Virus record (IMG/VR): IMGVR_UViG_3300032289_001255
Span: 17,432 to 81,431 of that record
Origin: a virus
Lineage: Duplodnaviria; Caudoviricetes
Reading direction: 5' to 3' (one strand)
Length of the DNA stretch: 64,000 nucleotides
The notes under the pieces: generated by a model
Databases searched by the model: none
What the model was told of the DNA's origin: nothing
Seen by the model: the letters and a program-made list of their open reading frames with translations, nothing else
Position numbers and translations under genes: made by a program
Shown: one piece after another, positions 32,960 to 37,961 of the stretch
Layout of the letters: each line of letters opens with the position of its first letter
How positions within the stretch are numbered: position 1 is the first letter of the stretch

Positions 32960-33520
32960 TCATACTTCTATACAAATAAGTCCTTCGTAGTCAAACAATT
33001 GACGGGTAAAAGTAGACTCTGGTGGATGTCCAATATATTGCACCACTTTAATTTTTTCGTGTGTGATTAGATCATTAATTGCTTGTTTTATTTCTGGAAA
33101 TGCGCCGTAGTCGTCATAAATAAAGTACTTTTTGTCATTTGACTTAAAATTTAATGATCGAATTGTATCATTGATGACCGCATCATATGTGTGTTCGGCA
33201 TCAATCAAAAAAACGTCTCCATAGTCTAGTGGTAATATTGTATTATACACATCTTGTGCATAAAATCTAACATTTGGTCTATCACTATTAAACTTTTCCG
33301 CTAATTCTACGCTTTCTAAATTAAATCCTACTACTTCTTTAAAAAGATAACTTAAAATTTTTGTTGTATATCCAATATTGCTCCCAATCTCTAAACACGT
33401 TTTATTTTTAAATTCGTCTTTATCAAAAAATTCAAACAGTTCACGTTTAAATTTATGACTCGTTGTGGTTTTGTGTTGAAACTTATCTGGTATATTAACC
33501 AACAATTCTTCGATATTCAT
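32960..33520 (-). CDS. Class I SAM-dependent methyltransferase
   Basis: CLEIGSNIGYTT, FLIDAEHTY, IYDDYG. Confidence 0.8.
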   Translation of the reverse strand: MNIEELLVNIPDKFQHKTTTSHKFKRELFEFFDKDEFKNKTCLEIGSNIGYTTKILSYLFKEVVGFNLESVELAEKFNSDRPNVRFYAQDVYNTILPLDYGDVFLIDAEHTYDAVINDTIRSLNFKSNDKKYFIYDDYGAFPEIKQAINDLITHEKIKVVQYIGHPPESTFTRQLFDYEGLICIEV

Positions 33521-33526
33521 ATAATA

Positions 33527-34303
33527 TTAACTTAAATTTCCCAAAAACCCACGTTGACATTCTAATAAATAATGACTAATTCTTCGTACATTAGAAAGTC
33601 TATAACTTCTATTAGATATGTTCTTATCAACTAAGTATCGTGAAAAATTACGACATATGTTATTCCAGTTTGACAATGCTTTTAAATCGATTGGACTAGG
33701 TGATACAACTTGATTTTCACGTGTTAATGTAACGTTATTATAGTTTAAAAATGATTCTCTATCCAATAAAATTTCTTTTTTAAACACATTAAATGATCCC
33801 CTCGGAGTTAACGTATTTTCATAAAAACAATTTCCCACATGTAACCAATTATCATCTTTAATTGCTTTTACTTTATTGTTTTCTGAGAAAAAGTAAGATT
33901 CTACCGTGTTATTTACAATGTCAGATATTATATTTAAATTTGTTATATAGTTGTCATCGTGAAAGAAAAATAAATAATCAGGAATTTCATTGTGATCTGA
34001 AAAATATTGATTTATAAAATAAAAATCGCCGATTACATTTTGATATTCTTGATATTCTATATTCCAGTTTTTCAGATTTTGTTGAATAAGTCTCTGTGAA
34101 TATAATTTAAAATCTAATTCATTAACTTTATTGTTACGTATAAAATTCAATTTTTCATTATAAACCAAAGGAATTTCTGGATTTCTATGAGAAACTACGA
34201 ATTTTTTAATGTTACAATTTTCAGGACAATTTAACTGTGAAATTTGTTTATAAAATTCATAAGGAAAATGCCATCCACCAATTAGTATCAATATATTTTT
34301 CAT
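33527..34303 (-). CDS. Putative GT-A glycosyltransferase
   Basis: YLFFFHDDN, RGSFNVF; operon context. Confidence 0.45.
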   Translation of the reverse strand: MKNILILIGGWHFPYEFYKQISQLNCPENCNIKKFVVSHRNPEIPLVYNEKLNFIRNNKVNELDFKLYSQRLIQQNLKNWNIEYQEYQNVIGDFYFINQYFSDHNEIPDYLFFFHDDNYITNLNIISDIVNNTVESYFFSENNKVKAIKDDNWLHVGNCFYENTLTPRGSFNVFKKEILLDRESFLNYNNVTLTRENQVVSPSPIDLKALSNWNNICRNFSRYLVDKNISNRSYRLSNVRRISHYLLECQRGFLGNLS

Positions 34304-34563
34304 CTAACGTTATATCCTTTGTTTTCTTCTTGAGTAAACATTTTATTATAGTTTAAATTTGTCTGTCTCTGTTTTTCTATAGTCTTTTCGTGAATAATTG
34401 CATAATCTTTTTGCGGAGGTATAAAGACATAACTTTTGAAGCCTTCTACTTTTTCATGTAATCTTCTTTCGTACCTAATGTGTGGTAAATTACGATATAA
34501 TCTGGATTGATAATCGGGTACATTTATTAAAGGAGGATTGTATTTAATTTTAATGAGTGCCAT
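34300..34563 (-). CDS. C-terminal fragment of the split GT2 gene
   Basis: PDYQSRLYRN..IRYERRLHE...IIHEK..KQRQTNLNY is the C-terminal part of the GT2 whose N-half is at 35386-35901; its own ATG overlaps the HNH 3' end. Confidence 0.75.
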   Translation of the reverse strand: MALIKIKYNPPLINVPDYQSRLYRNLPHIRYERRLHEKVEGFKSYVFIPPQKDYAIIHEKTIEKQRQTNLNYNKMFTQEENKGYNVR

Positions 34564-35362
34564 AATATTTTTCCAATAAAAATTCTTTTGAGATTGAACT
34601 TTTTGTATTTTTAATACTATTTTGATTTGATGGTATAAATTCTAGATTATCTATAGATCCAACTATTTTTGGATCTATACCATCTTTAAAACCTTGCTTA
34701 ATACTCAATTTATGATCCAAACTATATGATCCTGATACTTCTATTCTAGCTCTTTTGTTATAATTTTCTAATTCTGTTAAATTATTTTGGTTAGTATAAT
34801 ACCAGACTAATTGCTTATATTGTTGCCATTCCGATTTTTTTGTTAATGGGGTAAAATATCCAAGATTCTCCATAGTTTTTCTCCACTGTTCTACAGATCT
34901 ATTTTCTGAAACTGATTTTGAAACTTTTTCCCTATATTCTTTGTTTTTCCAAAACAGTTCGGTGTGTTTGCCAATTATTTTCTTAGTGATTTCATCGTGT
35001 TTAAATCCAGTATGTTTTTTTGCATTATTATCTATAATATCATTTGTATATTTCGTCAATCCTTTGTTCCAAGGCGGATTGTTTTTTCTATATTCAATCA
35101 TTCGTTTTGAATGTAGTTCGCCCATTTTTTTTAAAGATGAATTGTTTTCTTTTGTTAAACCACGATTCCAACTTCCACATTTATTACATTTTCGTTTTTC
35201 TCTGAAACAACATCTCGCTGAGATCACATTTTTATGAATGATATTCACGGAACATTTCGGACATTTTCTAATCCACAAAATATTTCCGTTGTCATCTTTT
35301 GCTTCTATGATTGAAGAATAATCAATGGTTGTAGTGCCTTTAGGTCTCATATTATTATACAT
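34550..35362 (-). mobile_element. Free-standing HNH homing endonuclease (Zn finger plus NUMOD-like repeats)
   Basis: CPKC...CNKC, two (P/S)WN(K/R)GLTK repeats, NUMOD3-like HTGFKHDEITKKII, C-terminal YSLDHK...NLEFIP..QNSIK. Confidence 0.8.
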
Positions 35363-35385
35363 TCTTTATCAATGGAGAGTGTTTA

Positions 35386-35901
35386 TTAATATATATTAGA
35401 TTCTTCCAATATAAATCCATTAATTTTTAAAAATTTATATTCATTCGATTCGTTGTCTATTATTTTTTCATTTATTAAATCTTTAAATGTACTACATTGC
35501 CAACCCCACATATTGATGTCTTGTTGTGTCACCCCGTGGAAATAATTTAAACGTGGCAACCATAATACTTCATTGTTATTGTTCGATTCAATAATTAAAT
35601 CTATATTCTCTATCAATCCATCCGTGGGAATTTCATCTGCATCTAGTTGAAAGATCCATTCACCTTTACATAATTCTATACCATAGTTTTTATGTGCACC
35701 ATAATTTTTATCTAATTTATGTTGATAAAAATTTATCTTTTCTTTATATTTCTGTATAATTTCCAAAGTTTTTGGATTGTCTGAATAATCATCAAGAAGA
35801 ACGATCTCATGTTGTTCTTTTATGTTGGAAATTAATTTGTTTAATAGTTTTTCTAAACTATCTGTTTCATTATGACACGTTACTAGATAAGATAAAAACA
35901 T
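35386..35901 (-). CDS. N-terminal fragment of the split GT2 gene
   Basis: SYLVTCHNE, LLDDYSD, YGAHKNYG, WIFQLDADE, WLPRLN; stops before the catalytic C-half. Confidence 0.8.
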   Translation of the reverse strand: MFLSYLVTCHNETDSLEKLLNKLISNIKEQHEIVLLDDYSDNPKTLEIIQKYKEKINFYQHKLDKNYGAHKNYGIELCKGEWIFQLDADEIPTDGLIENIDLIIESNNNNEVLWLPRLNYFHGVTQQDINMWGWQCSTFKDLINEKIIDNESNEYKFLKINGFILEESNIY

Positions 35902-35902
35902 A

Positions 35903-37240
35903 TTAAGCTATCTTTAATTTTGGAAGTGTTAGTTTATTTTCCGTTGGGGTATTATTAATTGATTTTAATTTCGGTAATACAAACGCATTTTCAACTGCAA
36001 ATGTTGGAACATATTTATCCAAGATAGACCACAGTCTTGTATCCATTGCAGTCATACTGAATTTTTCCATGTTTTCTTTACGTAGAAGTTCAGCGTTTTT
36101 AGTAAATTTATCACTCTTTCGAGCAAAGTATATTTGTTTCATTCTATCTTCCGCTAGGGAATATGATACTTTGAACCATTTGCTTTCTTTAATAATCCAT
36201 TGATTTACTGACTTTTTATCTACATCAACAAGATTACCGGATAATAAATTAGCATATGTTGGATTTAGATAATCCAAGTGACCACTCCAATTAGGCGCCA
36301 ATAGTGGTTTACCACTTAGTGTTGATAGAAGAAGTGGATGTCCATATCCTTCACCGTGAGTAAATGAAACGTGAGCTATAATCTTTTCGTGATTCATCAA
36401 AGCATTCATTTCTGGTTCGGATAATTCTCCATGCAAAAGATACACATTTGGAGCATTTTCGCCGATTTCATCACGAACTTTCTTAATCCTAGATAGAATT
36501 TCAAATCGATCTACAGTTGAATATGAAGCTCCACCTGTTTTTACAATGAGACATGGACGGTCATTTAGAGACTGATTCTTAAATGATGTACAGAATGTCT
36601 TAATTAGATTTCCAATATCCTTACGATCATTATAAAGTCCGCCATGTGTCCACTGACCTATAAATAAGAATGCAGAAGTTTCTTTGATGCTTGATAAAGC
36701 AGTTTCAACGGATTCAAGTTTTTCATCCGTCTTTTTAAAGATGTTGGTATCTGCTCCCCAGAAACACACTTCGATTGGTTTTTCAACTTGAATTGGAATT
36801 TGTTGACCGTTTTCCAATTGTTTTGCTAACTTTGTCTCGGTAAATGTCTTTTTAACATGATTAGACAATCCGATAGTAAGATTCATTCTATTAACACCTT
36901 CGATCCAACTGCCTGGTGGAATAGTAGTTTCAATACCAGCGGTCATTCCAATATTGTATTTGCCAATTGGTTGGAATTCTTCTGGAATGGTTAGTTGAAT
37001 AAATACATCTGGTTGTTTATTTAAACCATTAGTGATTATTTTTGAAGCGACTATTTTATCTTCGGGATCAGTGAGATCTTCTAGAAAACGTTTACTTTGA
37101 CAATTTCCCCATCTAGTGGGTGCAATTTTAACATCATACTTATCATAACGAATGATGCTTTTTGCAACAGCTGTTGCCCAGTCGCCATATCCGCTGCGGT
37201 TAAATACTGGTCCTGAAATTAGACATAATGGTTTGCTCAT
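35903..37240 (-). CDS. GT4-like (GT-B) glycosyltransferase, phage paralog family
   Basis: SGYG, TAGIET, RKDIGNLIKTF, LLHG, FTHGEGYGHPLL. Confidence 0.85.
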   Translation of the reverse strand: MSKPLCLISGPVFNRSGYGDWATAVAKSIIRYDKYDVKIAPTRWGNCQSKRFLEDLTDPEDKIVASKIITNGLNKQPDVFIQLTIPEEFQPIGKYNIGMTAGIETTIPPGSWIEGVNRMNLTIGLSNHVKKTFTETKLAKQLENGQQIPIQVEKPIEVCFWGADTNIFKKTDEKLESVETALSSIKETSAFLFIGQWTHGGLYNDRKDIGNLIKTFCTSFKNQSLNDRPCLIVKTGGASYSTVDRFEILSRIKKVRDEIGENAPNVYLLHGELSEPEMNALMNHEKIIAHVSFTHGEGYGHPLLLSTLSGKPLLAPNWSGHLDYLNPTYANLLSGNLVDVDKKSVNQWIIKESKWFKVSYSLAEDRMKQIYFARKSDKFTKNAELLRKENMEKFSMTAMDTRLWSILDKYVPTFAVENAFVLPKLKSINNTPTENKLTLPKLKIA

Positions 37241-37241
37241 A

Positions 37242-37961
37242 TTATTGATTAAATTGTTTTGTATCTCTTTCGTTAACTAACTGACTATACTTTTTGTTTG
37301 GAGTAGGAATTCCACCTAAACTATTATAGAGTGCTTCCATTTTACTCATTTGAACTTGAGCTATTTCGGCTTTCTCTGTTTTTTTAACATCGGTACTACC
37401 AAATCCACCGTCGCCTCTGTCTGTAGAATCTAGTTCATTTACTAATACAAATTCTACGTCTTCAACTCTGGTTATTTTTAGTTGACAAACTTTATCCCCC
37501 TTTTTATAGAGTTTTTCAATATTTGGTTTTCCTACTATATAATTGTACAATGGAGATCCATCATTTGATAGATGGGGATATATACTATAATCTTCTGGTT
37601 GCCAAATATATTTAAATCGAAGCAATACCTCACCACGATAATCTGCATCGATTAATCCAATACAGTTAGCTAACACCAGATTATATTTACTAACACTACT
37701 ACGAGGAAATGCTAGAATATCATAATCAATATCAGTATAACCAAAGTTACTGAATTGACGATCTTTTTGAACTGCCAACTTAAGATTGGTCTTGTATTGA
37801 ATGTAGTCAATGCGTTTGTATGTACCATTCTCATACTGATCACCAACGATCTCTGGATCACTTGTAACAAGTACATCAAATCCAGTAGCTCTATCAGTAC
37901 CTTTCTTTGGTAGATTTTCTACATCTTGATAATCTTCGTTCTTTAATACTTGAATTTTCAT
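37242..37961 (-). CDS. dut: dUTP diphosphatase (trimeric dUTPase)
   Basis: ATGFDV, PRSS, GLIDADYRGE, RGDGGFGSTD. Confidence 0.92.
   Translation of the reverse strand: MKIQVLKNEDYQDVENLPKKGTDRATGFDVLVTSDPEIVGDQYENGTYKRIDYIQYKTNLKLAVQKDRQFSNFGYTDIDYDILAFPRSSVSKYNLVLANCIGLIDADYRGEVLLRFKYIWQPEDYSIYPHLSNDGSPLYNYIVGKPNIEKLYKKGDKVCQLKITRVEDVEFVLVNELDSTDRGDGGFGSTDVKKTEKAEIAQVQMSKMEALYNSLGGIPTPNKKYSQLVNERDTKQFNQ

What the first reader, a model, noticed from the sequence alone, without database searches (positions are those of the whole stretch)
34300..35901. GT2 gene cut in two by a free-standing HNH endonuclease, with no room for a self-splicing intron
Seen: the N-half (35901-35386, through the DADE motif) stops at TAA. 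Only 23 nt separate it from the HNH ORF. The C-half (PDYQSRLYRN..LHE) restarts at its own ATG (34563), which overlaps the last codons of the HNH ORF. Neither flank has space for a group I/II intron core. Established: Aeh1 nrdA split by mobE and T4 gene 60 disrupted by mobA are precedents for homing endonucleases inserted without splicing, rescued by two-chain assembly or ribosomal bypass. Inference: this is a new case in a glycosyltransferase, with the two fragments probably assembling into an active heterodimer. It also implies this GT is conserved enough among relatives to sustain homing.
Basis: partly seen in the sequence, partly recalled or inferred. Interest (0 to 1): 0.75.

Follow-up and report, generated by a model that had tools for sequence, protein, structure and literature searches.

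The report
Phage glycosyltransferase split by mobile endonuclease cassette
A phage sugar-transferase gene has been cut into two separately translated genes by a roughly 1-kb mobile endonuclease cassette that carries its own conserved peptide "tails", a second natural example of the solution known from the split ribonucleotide reductase of phage Aeh1.

Summary
On the minus strand lie a 171-aa GT2 N-half (35901-35386), a 23-nt gap, a 270-aa endonuclease ORF (35362-34550) and an 87-aa C-half (34563-34300).

Close relatives carry an uninterrupted 215-aa gene in identical synteny. It includes the last 36 codons of the N-half (an acidic "tail") and the first 11 codons of the C-half (a basic "head").

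- **Mobility.** Split alleles are scattered over the GT tree (at least 10 state changes). Between phages whose exons are 71-77% identical, the tail, endonuclease and head are 95-100% identical. A near-isogenic pair fixes the boundaries at about 35503 and 34519.
- **Selection.** The tail is under purifying selection (dN/dS about 0.15). It has 11 invariant residues in 14 sequences from three of the four deep lineages. One lineage has a different nuclease domain. Another allele has lost the endonuclease but keeps both GT ORFs.
- **Alternatives.** There is no intron signal, and intein hallmarks are absent.

Best reading: intronless homing plus two-chain reassembly through cassette-borne tails, as in Aeh1 NrdA/mobE (PMC3045599). 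Assembly, enzyme activity and DNA cleavage are inferred, not shown. I class it as a new member of a known kind.

The parts
35497..35901 (-). GT2 glycosyltransferase, N-terminal 135 codons (nucleotide-binding half with the DxD motif D87-A-D89-E90), homologous to the intact 215-aa alleles
   Evidence: Pfam PF00535 at 6e-18. Codon-by-codon match to intact L002 up to Q135. Alignment A2.
35386..35496 (-). Cassette-encoded acidic tail of the N-fragment (36 codons, CSTFKDLINEKIIDNESNEYKFLKINGFILEESNIY) plus the TAA stop. Absent from intact alleles.
   Evidence: There are 11 invariant residues in 14 sequences from three deep lineages, and a fourth lineage shows the same motif. dN/dS is 0.16/1.05. Net charge is -2 to -5.
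35363..35385 (-). 23-nt non-coding gap between the N-fragment stop and the endonuclease ATG. Relatives start at the MRP codon, which is window 35350.
34550..35362 (-). Free-standing homing endonuclease ORF, 270 aa. It has a CxxC...CxxC zinc ribbon (C34/C37, C59/C62), NUMOD3-like helical repeats (about residues 65-150) and a C-terminal HNH-type nuclease (about residues 170-260; D216, H217, N239, N248).
   Evidence: phrog_5104 at 1e-16. Invariant DH..N..N. NUMOD3 in 9 of 34 relatives and HNH_4 in 1. AF2 model with pLDDT 86. Cas9, Gme and GVE2 HNH domains are the best but weak structural matches.
34531..34563 (-). Cassette-encoded basic head of the C-fragment (11 codons, MALIKIKYNPP) with its own ATG, overlapping the last 14 nt of the endonuclease ORF
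   Evidence: Net charge is +2 to +5. A strong Shine-Dalgarno sequence, GAGGAGG, lies before the equivalent ATG in L009.
34300..34530 (-). GT2 glycosyltransferase, C-terminal 76 codons plus stop (LINVPDYQSR...HE...H.K). It keeps all residues that are invariant in intact alleles.
   Evidence: phrog_37334 positions 149-209.
34519..35503 (-). The unit that actually moves. It comprises the tail, endonuclease gene and head, plus at most 8 nt (5') and 12 nt (3') of co-converted or recoded exon (GGG to GGT; MIN(F/Y) to LINV).
   Evidence: Near-isogenic split and intact pair, L017 against L019-L021. Identity steps at about 35511 and 34521 in window against L022 and in L001 against L008.

Best explanation
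**What it is.** A roughly 1-kb intronless homing cassette sits in the GT2 glycosyltransferase gene of an uncultured freshwater T4-like myovirus. The insertion point is the tip of a small surface beta-hairpin, WGW-x-x-x-D-G-MIN.

**What the cassette carries, in order:**
1. 36 codons that extend the upstream GT fragment with an acidic tail, then a stop codon.
2. A free-standing endonuclease gene with a zinc ribbon, NUMOD3-like DNA-binding repeats and an HNH nuclease domain.
3. A new ATG and 11 codons that give the downstream GT fragment a basic head.

**How it most likely works.**
- The endonuclease cuts or nicks cassette-free alleles at the conserved WGW..DGMIN site during co-infection. Repair then copies the whole cassette in, with only about 10 nt of flank.
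- The glycosyltransferase is made as two polypeptides of 171 and 87 aa, which reassemble into one GT-A domain.
- The oppositely charged tail and head act as an assembly clamp, probably by extending the broken hairpin.
- This makes the insertion nearly neutral for the phage.

**Shown here:** the insertion, its exact limits, its mobility, purifying selection on the tail, and retention of all catalytic motifs.

**Inferred:** DNA cleavage specificity, two-chain assembly, the tail-head contact and enzyme activity.
For: **1. Intact alleles exist.** 215-aa alleles in identical synteny are up to 92% identical over codons 1-135.

**2. Exact junction.** Homology ends at 35497 and resumes at 34530. The 966-nt insert replaces 4 codons, MYDG.

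**3. Mobility.**
- Among the best 120 relatives and three added rows (the window, L013, L009), 14 are split and 103 intact. The split state needs at least 10 changes on the GT tree, 5 of them forced by starred branches.
- One split allele is identical over 135 aa to two intact ones.
- Window against L022: exons 71% and 77.5% identical, but tail 95.5%, endonuclease 97.9% and head 100%.
- L001 against L008 shows the same pattern.
- In the near-isogenic pair L017 against L019-L021, flanks are 98.5-99.1% identical and the boundaries are sharp.

**4. The tail is a selected peptide.**
- There are 11 invariant residues in 14 sequences from three lineages, whose GT N-halves are 44-45% identical to the window's. 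A fourth lineage (L016) shows the same motif.
- Tail dN/dS is 0.16/1.05, against 0.21/1.85 for the exon.
- Invariant residues show synonymous codon variation.

**5. Opposite charges.** The tail is -2 to -5 and the head +2 to +5. This parallels the oppositely charged tails of Aeh1 NrdA-a/NrdA-b, which are essential for activity (PMC3045599).

**6. Both fragments stay open.** This holds in four deep lineages: the window type, L013, L009 and L016. It also holds in an allele found on 14 contigs whose endonuclease gene is destroyed.

**7. One domain from both halves.** The AF2 model of the intact protein (pTM 0.80) places the break at a low-confidence hairpin tip, residues 136-141. Full-length GT-A matches to SunS, TarP and SpsA show that both halves build one domain.

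**8. No RNA-based alternative.**
- There is no intron model hit at E of 10 or less and no excess RNA structure.
- The endonuclease ORF is out of frame and bounded by stops.
Against: - No direct evidence shows that the two chains bind or that the enzyme is active.
- The window's C-half start has no clear Shine-Dalgarno sequence, so its translation may depend on coupling to the endonuclease ORF.
- Because the cassette moves, conservation of the exons among split alleles partly reflects their history as intact genes.
- Assignment of the nuclease to HNH rests on a motif and on weak structural scores: Foldseek E of 0.07 and VIA Z of 4.3.
- The window ORF itself has no Pfam HNH hit.
Confidence: 0.8

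Rival explanations
1. The split has inactivated the glycosyltransferase. On this view the two ORFs are tolerated remnants of a dispensable accessory gene, and the tail and head are incidental read-through and restart sequences.
For: - The gene lies in a large, variable glycan cluster, where single GTs could be dispensable.
- Cassette transfer is recent in several alleles, so open frames there could simply not have had time to decay.
- The window has no clear SD before the C-half ATG.
Against: - The tail exists only in the split form, yet shows dN/dS of about 0.15 and 11 invariant residues in 14 sequences from three deep lineages.
- All 14 N-halves and 11 C-halves aligned are full length, with DxD and all invariant C-terminal residues.
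- The fragments remain intact even where the endonuclease gene itself has decayed.
- L009 has a strong SD for the C-half.
Confidence: 0.12
2. The endonuclease gene sits in a self-splicing group I or group II intron. RNA splicing then restores a continuous GT mRNA.
For: HNH genes are often intron-borne in phages. The N- and C-halves are in the same reading frame.
Against: - No Rfam intron family matches at E of 10 or less over 33800-36400.
- The 5' 181 nt fold no better than shuffles, z = -1.1.
- The 5' flank of the insert is a peptide-coding sequence under purifying selection.
- The 3' end of the endonuclease ORF overlaps the C-half ATG, leaving no 3' intron core.
- Splicing would not recreate the intact junction.
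Confidence: 0.03
3. This is a 'fractured gene' with a split intein. On this view the tail is an N-intein and the head a C-intein, which ligate the two GT fragments by protein trans-splicing, as in the loci of Dassa et al. 2009 (PMC2677866).
For: - The arrangement of fragment, free-standing endonuclease and fragment matches that class (abstract).
- The tail begins with Cys in the window and L001 types.
Against: - Tail plus head total 47 residues, far below a HINT fold.
- Position 1 is Leu or Ile in L013 and L009 and Thr in L016.
- The first residue after the head is Leu or Ile, not Cys, Ser or Thr, and no His-Asn precedes it.
Confidence: 0.02

Closest known systems
Aeromonas phage Aeh1 nrdA-a / mobE / nrdA-b (Friedrich et al. 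2007; Crona et al. 2011, PMC3045599)
   Same: - A free-standing HNH-family endonuclease gene splits a conserved enzyme gene into two separately translated genes.
- The endonuclease ORF overlaps the downstream fragment.
- Element-derived, oppositely charged C- and N-terminal tails are absent from intact homologues.
- No RNA or protein splicing is involved.
   Different: - The host gene is a GT2 glycosyltransferase, not ribonucleotide reductase.
- The charge polarity is reversed: here the tail is acidic and the head basic.
- The Aeh1 split is a one-off attributed to a transposition-like event. Here the tails are part of a cassette that is polymorphic and demonstrably moves between diverged alleles, and they are conserved across four deep lineages.
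- The function of the tails here has not been tested.
T4 gene 39 / mobA / gene 60, and the split gene 43 (43A/43B) of Aeromonas phages 25 and 44RR (reviewed in PMC2988022)
   Same: Essential phage enzyme genes are fragmented at or near a free-standing homing endonuclease. The products must reassemble. Tail-like extensions are noted on gp39 and gp60.
   Different: No translational bypass element is present or needed here. In those cases the origin of the split is ambiguous. Here intact and split alleles coexist in near-isogenic genomes.
Fractured genes with split inteins and a free-standing endonuclease (Dassa et al. 2009, PMC2677866)
   Same: Same gene order: N-fragment, endonuclease gene, C-fragment. 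Both were found in environmental metagenomes.
   Different: The flanking peptides here (36 and 11 aa) lack intein size and nucleophiles, so reassembly must be non-covalent.
GT-A fold family-2 glycosyltransferases (SunS, TarP/TarS, SpsA; GmaR by sequence)
   Same: The intact 215-aa allele models as a single GT-A domain with DxD. Foldseek gives E of 3e-11 to SunS, and phmmer matches GmaR over residues 3-200.
   Different: In the window this single domain is encoded as two polypeptides. The donor and acceptor substrates are unknown.

Membership tests
Glycosyltransferase family 2 (GT-A fold, Pfam PF00535) | Profile match above the curated threshold | tested here: met
   The N-half scores 65.7 bits against a cut-off of 23.3, over residues 6-107.
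Glycosyltransferase family 2 (GT-A fold, Pfam PF00535) | DxD metal and nucleotide-sugar binding motif | tested here: met
   D87-A-D89-E90 is invariant in 14 split N-halves and 20 intact alleles.
Glycosyltransferase family 2 (GT-A fold, Pfam PF00535) | A single GT-A domain that needs both halves | tested here: met
   The model of the intact allele (pTM 0.80) aligns over about 195-220 columns with SunS and over 211-238 with TarS, TarP and SpsA. The C-half keeps the invariant residues D17, Q19, R21, H36, E37, H58 and K60.
Glycosyltransferase family 2 (GT-A fold, Pfam PF00535) | Transferase activity | not testable with these tools
   Needs an enzyme assay.
HNH (beta-beta-alpha-metal) endonuclease | Catalytic His, followed by Asn and then Asn or His, on a beta-beta-alpha core | tested here: met
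   D216-H217, N239 and N248 are invariant in 34 relatives. The model has strand 213-217, strand 240-244 and helix 245-251.
HNH (beta-beta-alpha-metal) endonuclease | Recognisable by HNH sequence profiles or by fold comparison | tested here: inconclusive
   - The window ORF has no Pfam HNH hit.
- One of 34 relatives hits HNH_4 at 0.0017.
- Foldseek's best matches are Cas9 HNH domains at E of 0.07-0.5.
- VIA gives Gme HNH Z 4.3 and GVE2 HNH Z 3.7.
Free-standing homing endonuclease gene (intronless homing) | Presence or absence at one precise site among close relatives | tested here: met
   Split L017 against intact L019-L021: flanks are 98.5-99.1% identical and the junctions are exact. Overall there are 14 split against 103 intact alleles.
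Free-standing homing endonuclease gene (intronless homing) | An element history incongruent with the host gene (horizontal spread) | tested here: met
   At least 10 state changes on the GT tree. The cassette is 95-100% identical where exons are 71-77% identical.
Free-standing homing endonuclease gene (intronless homing) | Not embedded in an intron or intein | tested here: met
   The Rfam permissive scan was empty. The ORF is in a different frame and bounded by stops. The tail and head lack intein features.
Free-standing homing endonuclease gene (intronless homing) | The endonuclease cleaves the cassette-free allele at or near the insertion site | not testable with these tools
   Needs an in vitro cleavage assay on the intact junction, for example L021 around nt 720-760.
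Genes-in-pieces with element-derived assembly tails (Aeh1 NrdA type) | The host gene is split into two independently translated ORFs by the endonuclease gene | tested here: met
   Stop after the tail and an own ATG for the C-half. SD GAGGAGG in L009. These are sequence-level evidence only.
Genes-in-pieces with element-derived assembly tails (Aeh1 NrdA type) | Tails absent from uninterrupted homologues and oppositely charged | tested here: met
   Charges are -2 to -5 against +2 to +5.
Genes-in-pieces with element-derived assembly tails (Aeh1 NrdA type) | Tails required for assembly or activity | not testable with these tools
Deletion mutants and assays are needed.
Group I / group II self-splicing intron | A conserved catalytic RNA core detectable by covariance models | tested here: not met
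   No intron family matches at E of 10 or less in 33800-36400. The fold z-score is -1.1.
Split intein (fractured gene) | A HINT-sized intein with an N-terminal Cys or Ser, a C-terminal Asn, and a +1 Cys, Ser or Thr | tested here: not met
   The two peptides are 36 and 11 residues. Position 1 is L or I in two lineages. The +1 residue is Leu or Ile.

The most novel reading that the evidence does not exclude
The cassette may be a self-contained 'cut, split and zip' element: a homing endonuclease gene that carries its own conserved, oppositely charged peptide adaptors. On this reading the adaptors non-covalently re-join the two halves of whatever allele the cassette invades. That would be a third route to phenotypic neutrality for homing elements, beside introns and inteins. 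The adaptors would also be old and selected enough to outlive both replacement of the nuclease domain (L009) and decay of the endonuclease (L017).
Probability: 0.5. Interest if true: 0.75.

Novelty: new member of a known kind. Interest (0 to 1): 0.6.

Why it matters
Only a few enzyme genes are known to have been split by free-standing homing endonucleases and still to work. For the best-studied case, Aeh1 NrdA, the origin of the essential tails was left open (PMC3045599).

Here natural populations supply several useful comparisons:
- intact, split and endonuclease-dead alleles, some of them near-isogenic;
- four deep lineages that share the same tail motif;
- one lineage with a swapped nuclease domain.

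Together these show that the tails travel with the endonuclease gene and are themselves under selection. The hypothesis that mobile elements bring their own protein-assembly antidote therefore becomes directly testable on a small, easily assayed GT-A enzyme. The tail and head may also be of use as a natural split-protein reassembly tag.

There is a practical point for annotation too. The 171-aa and 87-aa ORFs should be annotated as one two-chain glycosyltransferase, not as a truncated gene plus a hypothetical protein.

Tried and rejected
The tail-head contact and heterodimer could therefore not be modelled.
- **DNA search in the phage collection.** blastn of 33500-37300 found nothing.
- **No whole genome** is held for this window.
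- **PDB sequence searches.**
  - The profile search with the endonuclease alignment gave only chance hits to Erlin-1.
  - phmmer of the C-terminal domain of the L009 ORF against PDB found nothing.
- **Foldseek** with the whole endonuclease model gave no match at E of 0.001 or less.
- **A search restricted to the tail** (residues 132-171) returned only two window-type N-halves. It gave no evidence that the tail module occurs in other genes, though the word-based search is weak for 40 residues.
- **No conserved hairpin** sequestering the endonuclease start, as described for mobE, was seen in MFE folds of five lineages.
- **Promoter-like sites** occur at the chance level and there are no terminators.
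- **A first gapped local alignment** of split against intact DNA over-extended in the AT-rich sequence. I replaced it with ungapped codon walks.
- **No paralogue** of the endonuclease exists elsewhere in the window.
Full report
**1. The observation**

- a 171-aa ORF (35901-35386, TAA stop) with QLDADE at residues 85-90;
- a 23-nt gap;
- a 270-aa ORF (35362-34550);
- an 87-aa ORF whose ATG (34563) overlaps the last 14 nt of the middle ORF and which ends at 34300.

The N-half is a family-2 glycosyltransferase (Pfam PF00535, 65.7 bits against a cut-off of 23.3). The two halves hit non-overlapping parts of one PHROG profile, phrog_37334: positions 4-129 and 149-209 of 213.

The window matches an 84-kb IMG/VR contig with 100% identity at this ORF. 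It belongs to an uncultured phage with a T4-type PolB and a roughly 30-kb glycan-synthesis cluster. The nearest cultured relative by polymerase is Microcystis phage Mel-JY01, at 41% aa identity.

**2. The gene is really split, and the insert is larger than the middle ORF**

A search with the N-half returned two classes of close homologue:
- 171-aa proteins covering the whole query (71-95% identity);
- 215-aa proteins covering only residues 1-135 (up to 92% identity), which continue ...WGW-x-x-x-DG-MIN(F/Y)PDYQSR....

A contig with the 215-aa gene (L002) has the same neighbours as the window and as a split contig (L001): a PD-(D/E)XK exonuclease, two small genes, a GT4, a dUTPase-like gene and a 445-aa gene.

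Codon-by-codon comparison shows that homology to the intact allele ends at 35497 (Q135 of WGWQ) and resumes at 34530 (L of LINVPDYQ). The intact allele has four codons (MYDG) where the window has 966 nt, 35496-34531.

It follows that the last 36 codons of the N-half (CSTFKDLINEKIIDNESNEYKFLKINGFILEESNIY) and the first 11 codons of the C-half (MALIKIKYNPP) belong to the insert.

**3. The cassette is mobile, and the tail and head move with it**

*Tree.* I built a tree of the first 135 residues from the 120 best relatives plus the window and two deep split lineages (L013, L009) as outgroup.
- 14 rows are split and 103 intact.
- The split state needs at least 10 changes, 5 of them forced by well-supported branches.
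- One split allele (P0005) is identical over these 135 residues to two intact alleles.

*DNA identity.*
- The window and L022 are 71.1% (exon N) and 77.5% (exon C) identical.
- The same pair is 95.5% identical in the tail, 97.9% in the endonuclease gene and 100% in the head.
- The steps lie at about 35511 and 34521.
- A second cassette variant, about 80% identical to the window's, shows the same pattern between L001, L007, L008 and L012.

*Near-isogenic pair.* The cleanest case is split L017 against intact L019-L021.
- Flanks are 98.5-99.1% identical and there is one mismatch in the first 398 nt of the gene.
- One silent GGG to GGT change follows, and then divergence begins at nt 406.
- On the other side, identity resumes 220 nt before the stop. 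The codons MIN(Y) are recoded to LINV inside the transferred tract.

In window coordinates the moving unit is about 35503-34519. This is the signature of a homing element with very short co-conversion tracts.

**4. The endonuclease**

The middle ORF has no Pfam hit, but it has 1671 relatives in the representative library. Most share only its C-terminal 110 residues, joined to many different N-termini. An alignment of 34 relatives has invariant D216, H217, N239 and N248. NUMOD3 is detected in 9 of them and HNH_4 in one.

The AF2 model (pLDDT 86) shows three parts:
- a zinc-ribbon-like N-terminus (CxxC at 34-37 and 59-62);
- a helical middle;
- a C-terminal domain whose DH-bearing strand (213-217) and later strand-helix (240-251) fit a beta-beta-alpha core.

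Its best structural matches are weak but consistently HNH nucleases:
- Cas9 HNH domains at Foldseek E of 0.07-0.5;
- Gme HNH Z 4.3, GVE2 HNH Z 3.7, and lower down BrxU and McrA.

I therefore accept 'HNH-type' as likely, not proven.

The full-length relatives whose contexts I examined (43-48% identity) all sit between a GT2 N-fragment and a short C-fragment. These are L013 and L016, plus P0121 and P0125 judged by gene sizes only.

In L009 the ORF keeps the zinc-ribbon and NUMOD3-like module (50% identity over residues 27-147). Its nuclease domain is different, however:
- Pfam gives a weak Vsr match at E of 0.001, below threshold;
- PHROG gives 'homing endonuclease' families other than phrog_5104.

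This looks like a domain swap at a constant target site.

**5. The tail and head are selected peptides**

The tail motif (K/E)-I-(L/I)-D-x-x-S-x-E-Y-K-(F/L)-L-K-x-x-G-x-I-x-E-E has 11 invariant residues in 14 sequences. These include L013 and L009, whose GT N-halves are only 44-45% identical to the window's. L016 fits the motif too.

Invariant residues use different codons, for example Ser as TCG, TCC or TCA and Leu as TTA or CTG. Tail dN/dS between the two cassette variants is 0.16/1.05. That is similar to the GT exon at 0.21/1.85.

The tail is acidic (net -2 to -5) and the head basic (+2 to +5). Because the tail is translated only in the split form, its conservation is direct evidence for selection on the split protein.

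Further points:
- All 11 aligned C-halves keep the residues that are invariant in intact alleles: D17, Q19, R21, H36, E37, H58, K60 and others.
- L009 has a strong GAGGAGG Shine-Dalgarno sequence before the C-half ATG.
- In L017 and L018, an allele seen on 14 contigs, the endonuclease gene has been destroyed. Its first roughly 20 codons are fused to a methyltransferase fragment and only the last roughly 200 nt remain. Both GT fragments, with tail and head, are nevertheless intact.

**6. Where the break lies**

The model of the intact allele (pTM 0.80) is a single GT-A domain. It matches SunS, TarP/TarS and SpsA over essentially its full length and matches GmaR by sequence.

The insertion point (D138-G139) is the tip of a small, low-confidence beta-hairpin (strands 136-137 and 140-141) that follows helix 126-132. 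The N-fragment keeps the first strand and the C-fragment the second.

My inference is that the proximal tail (TFKDLI / KLEEF / KLESM) and the head (IKIKY / VKFKL / VKFYI) extend this hairpin as a charge-complementary two-stranded ribbon. The rest of the tail would then pack on as a helix plus strand.

**7. Alternatives**

*Intron.*
- A permissive Rfam scan of 33800-36400 found no intron family.
- The 5' 181 nt of the insert fold no better than shuffles, z = -1.1.
- That stretch is coding sequence under purifying selection.
- The endonuclease ORF runs into the C-half ATG, so no 3' intron core is possible.

*Intein or split intein (PMC2677866).*
- The two peptides total 47 residues.
- Position 1 is Leu or Ile in two lineages.
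- The +1 residue is Leu or Ile.

*Pseudogene.* This cannot be excluded for any single genome. It is disfavoured by the selection on the tail, the uniformly intact fragments, and their survival after the endonuclease has decayed.

**8. Comparison with what is known**

The closest system is Aeh1 nrdA-a/mobE/nrdA-b. There the tails, thought to have come in with mobE, are essential for activity and oppositely charged. The authors predicted that similar tails might exist at other fragmented genes (PMC3045599). T4 39/mobA/60 and the split gene 43 of phage 25 are further relatives (PMC2988022).

The present case is the same kind of thing in a new host gene (GT2) with a different endonuclease architecture. 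I found no report of a glycosyltransferase split in this way in the held literature. Cultured phages carry the gene intact.

What this case adds is population-level evidence on four points:
- the tails belong to the homing unit;
- the tails are ancient and selected;
- the tails persist through nuclease-domain replacement;
- the tails persist through endonuclease decay.

**9. Verdict**

I class it as a new member of a known kind and score interest at 0.6. Cleavage specificity, two-chain assembly and enzyme activity remain to be shown.

Noticed in passing
L017:3517-4360 (also L018): This is a split allele whose endonuclease gene is dead. The first roughly 20 codons are fused to a Methyltransf_24 fragment, a 77-aa ORF follows, and then only the last roughly 200 nt of the endonuclease gene remain. 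Both GT fragments, with tail and head, stay intact. The allele is seen on 14 contigs.
   Followed up: partly
L009:3863-4813: At the same GT2 site, this endonuclease shares the zinc-ribbon and NUMOD3-like module (50% identity) but has a different C-terminal nuclease. Pfam gives a weak Vsr-like match and the PHROG families differ. It looks like a nuclease-domain swap on a constant DNA-binding module.
   Followed up: partly
L008:4013-4837: The endonuclease ORF carries a +1 nt change in an A-run near its 3' end. This alters the last roughly 17 residues and makes the ORF run over the C-half start. It is either early decay or an assembly error.
   Followed up: no
P0279 (110 aa, 860-nt contig): This C-half-like protein has an N-terminal extension (..ILKHYGS-AIKIKFNPP..) that looks like the endonuclease C-terminus fused in frame to the head. 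It may be an endonuclease/C-half fusion variant.
   Followed up: no
L001:1-196 versus L002:1-303: Upstream of the shared exonuclease gene, the split contig has a 300-aa NUMOD3-bearing gene where the intact contig has a 128-aa gene. This is probably a second endonuclease presence/absence polymorphism in these phages.
   Followed up: no
window 37958-39476: The 321-aa GT4 gene (37958-38923) and the neighbouring 183-aa gene (38925-39476) are two separate ORFs of the same sizes in L001 and L002, and probably in L017. The two-gene arrangement is therefore conserved rather than a recent break.
   Followed up: partly
L013:1171-2416: Directly upstream of the split GT2 in this lineage lie a 307-aa ORF and a 78-aa ORF with endonuclease-like C-terminal motifs (..YIWESDW.., ..VIEWDE..). 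There may be further mobile nuclease genes beside the cluster.
   Followed up: no
L010 / L015: Loci pulled in only by NUMOD3 similarity carry two GIY-YIG/NUMOD3 seg-like endonuclease genes flanking a clamp-loader-like gene. They are unrelated to the GT2 cassette.
   Followed up: no
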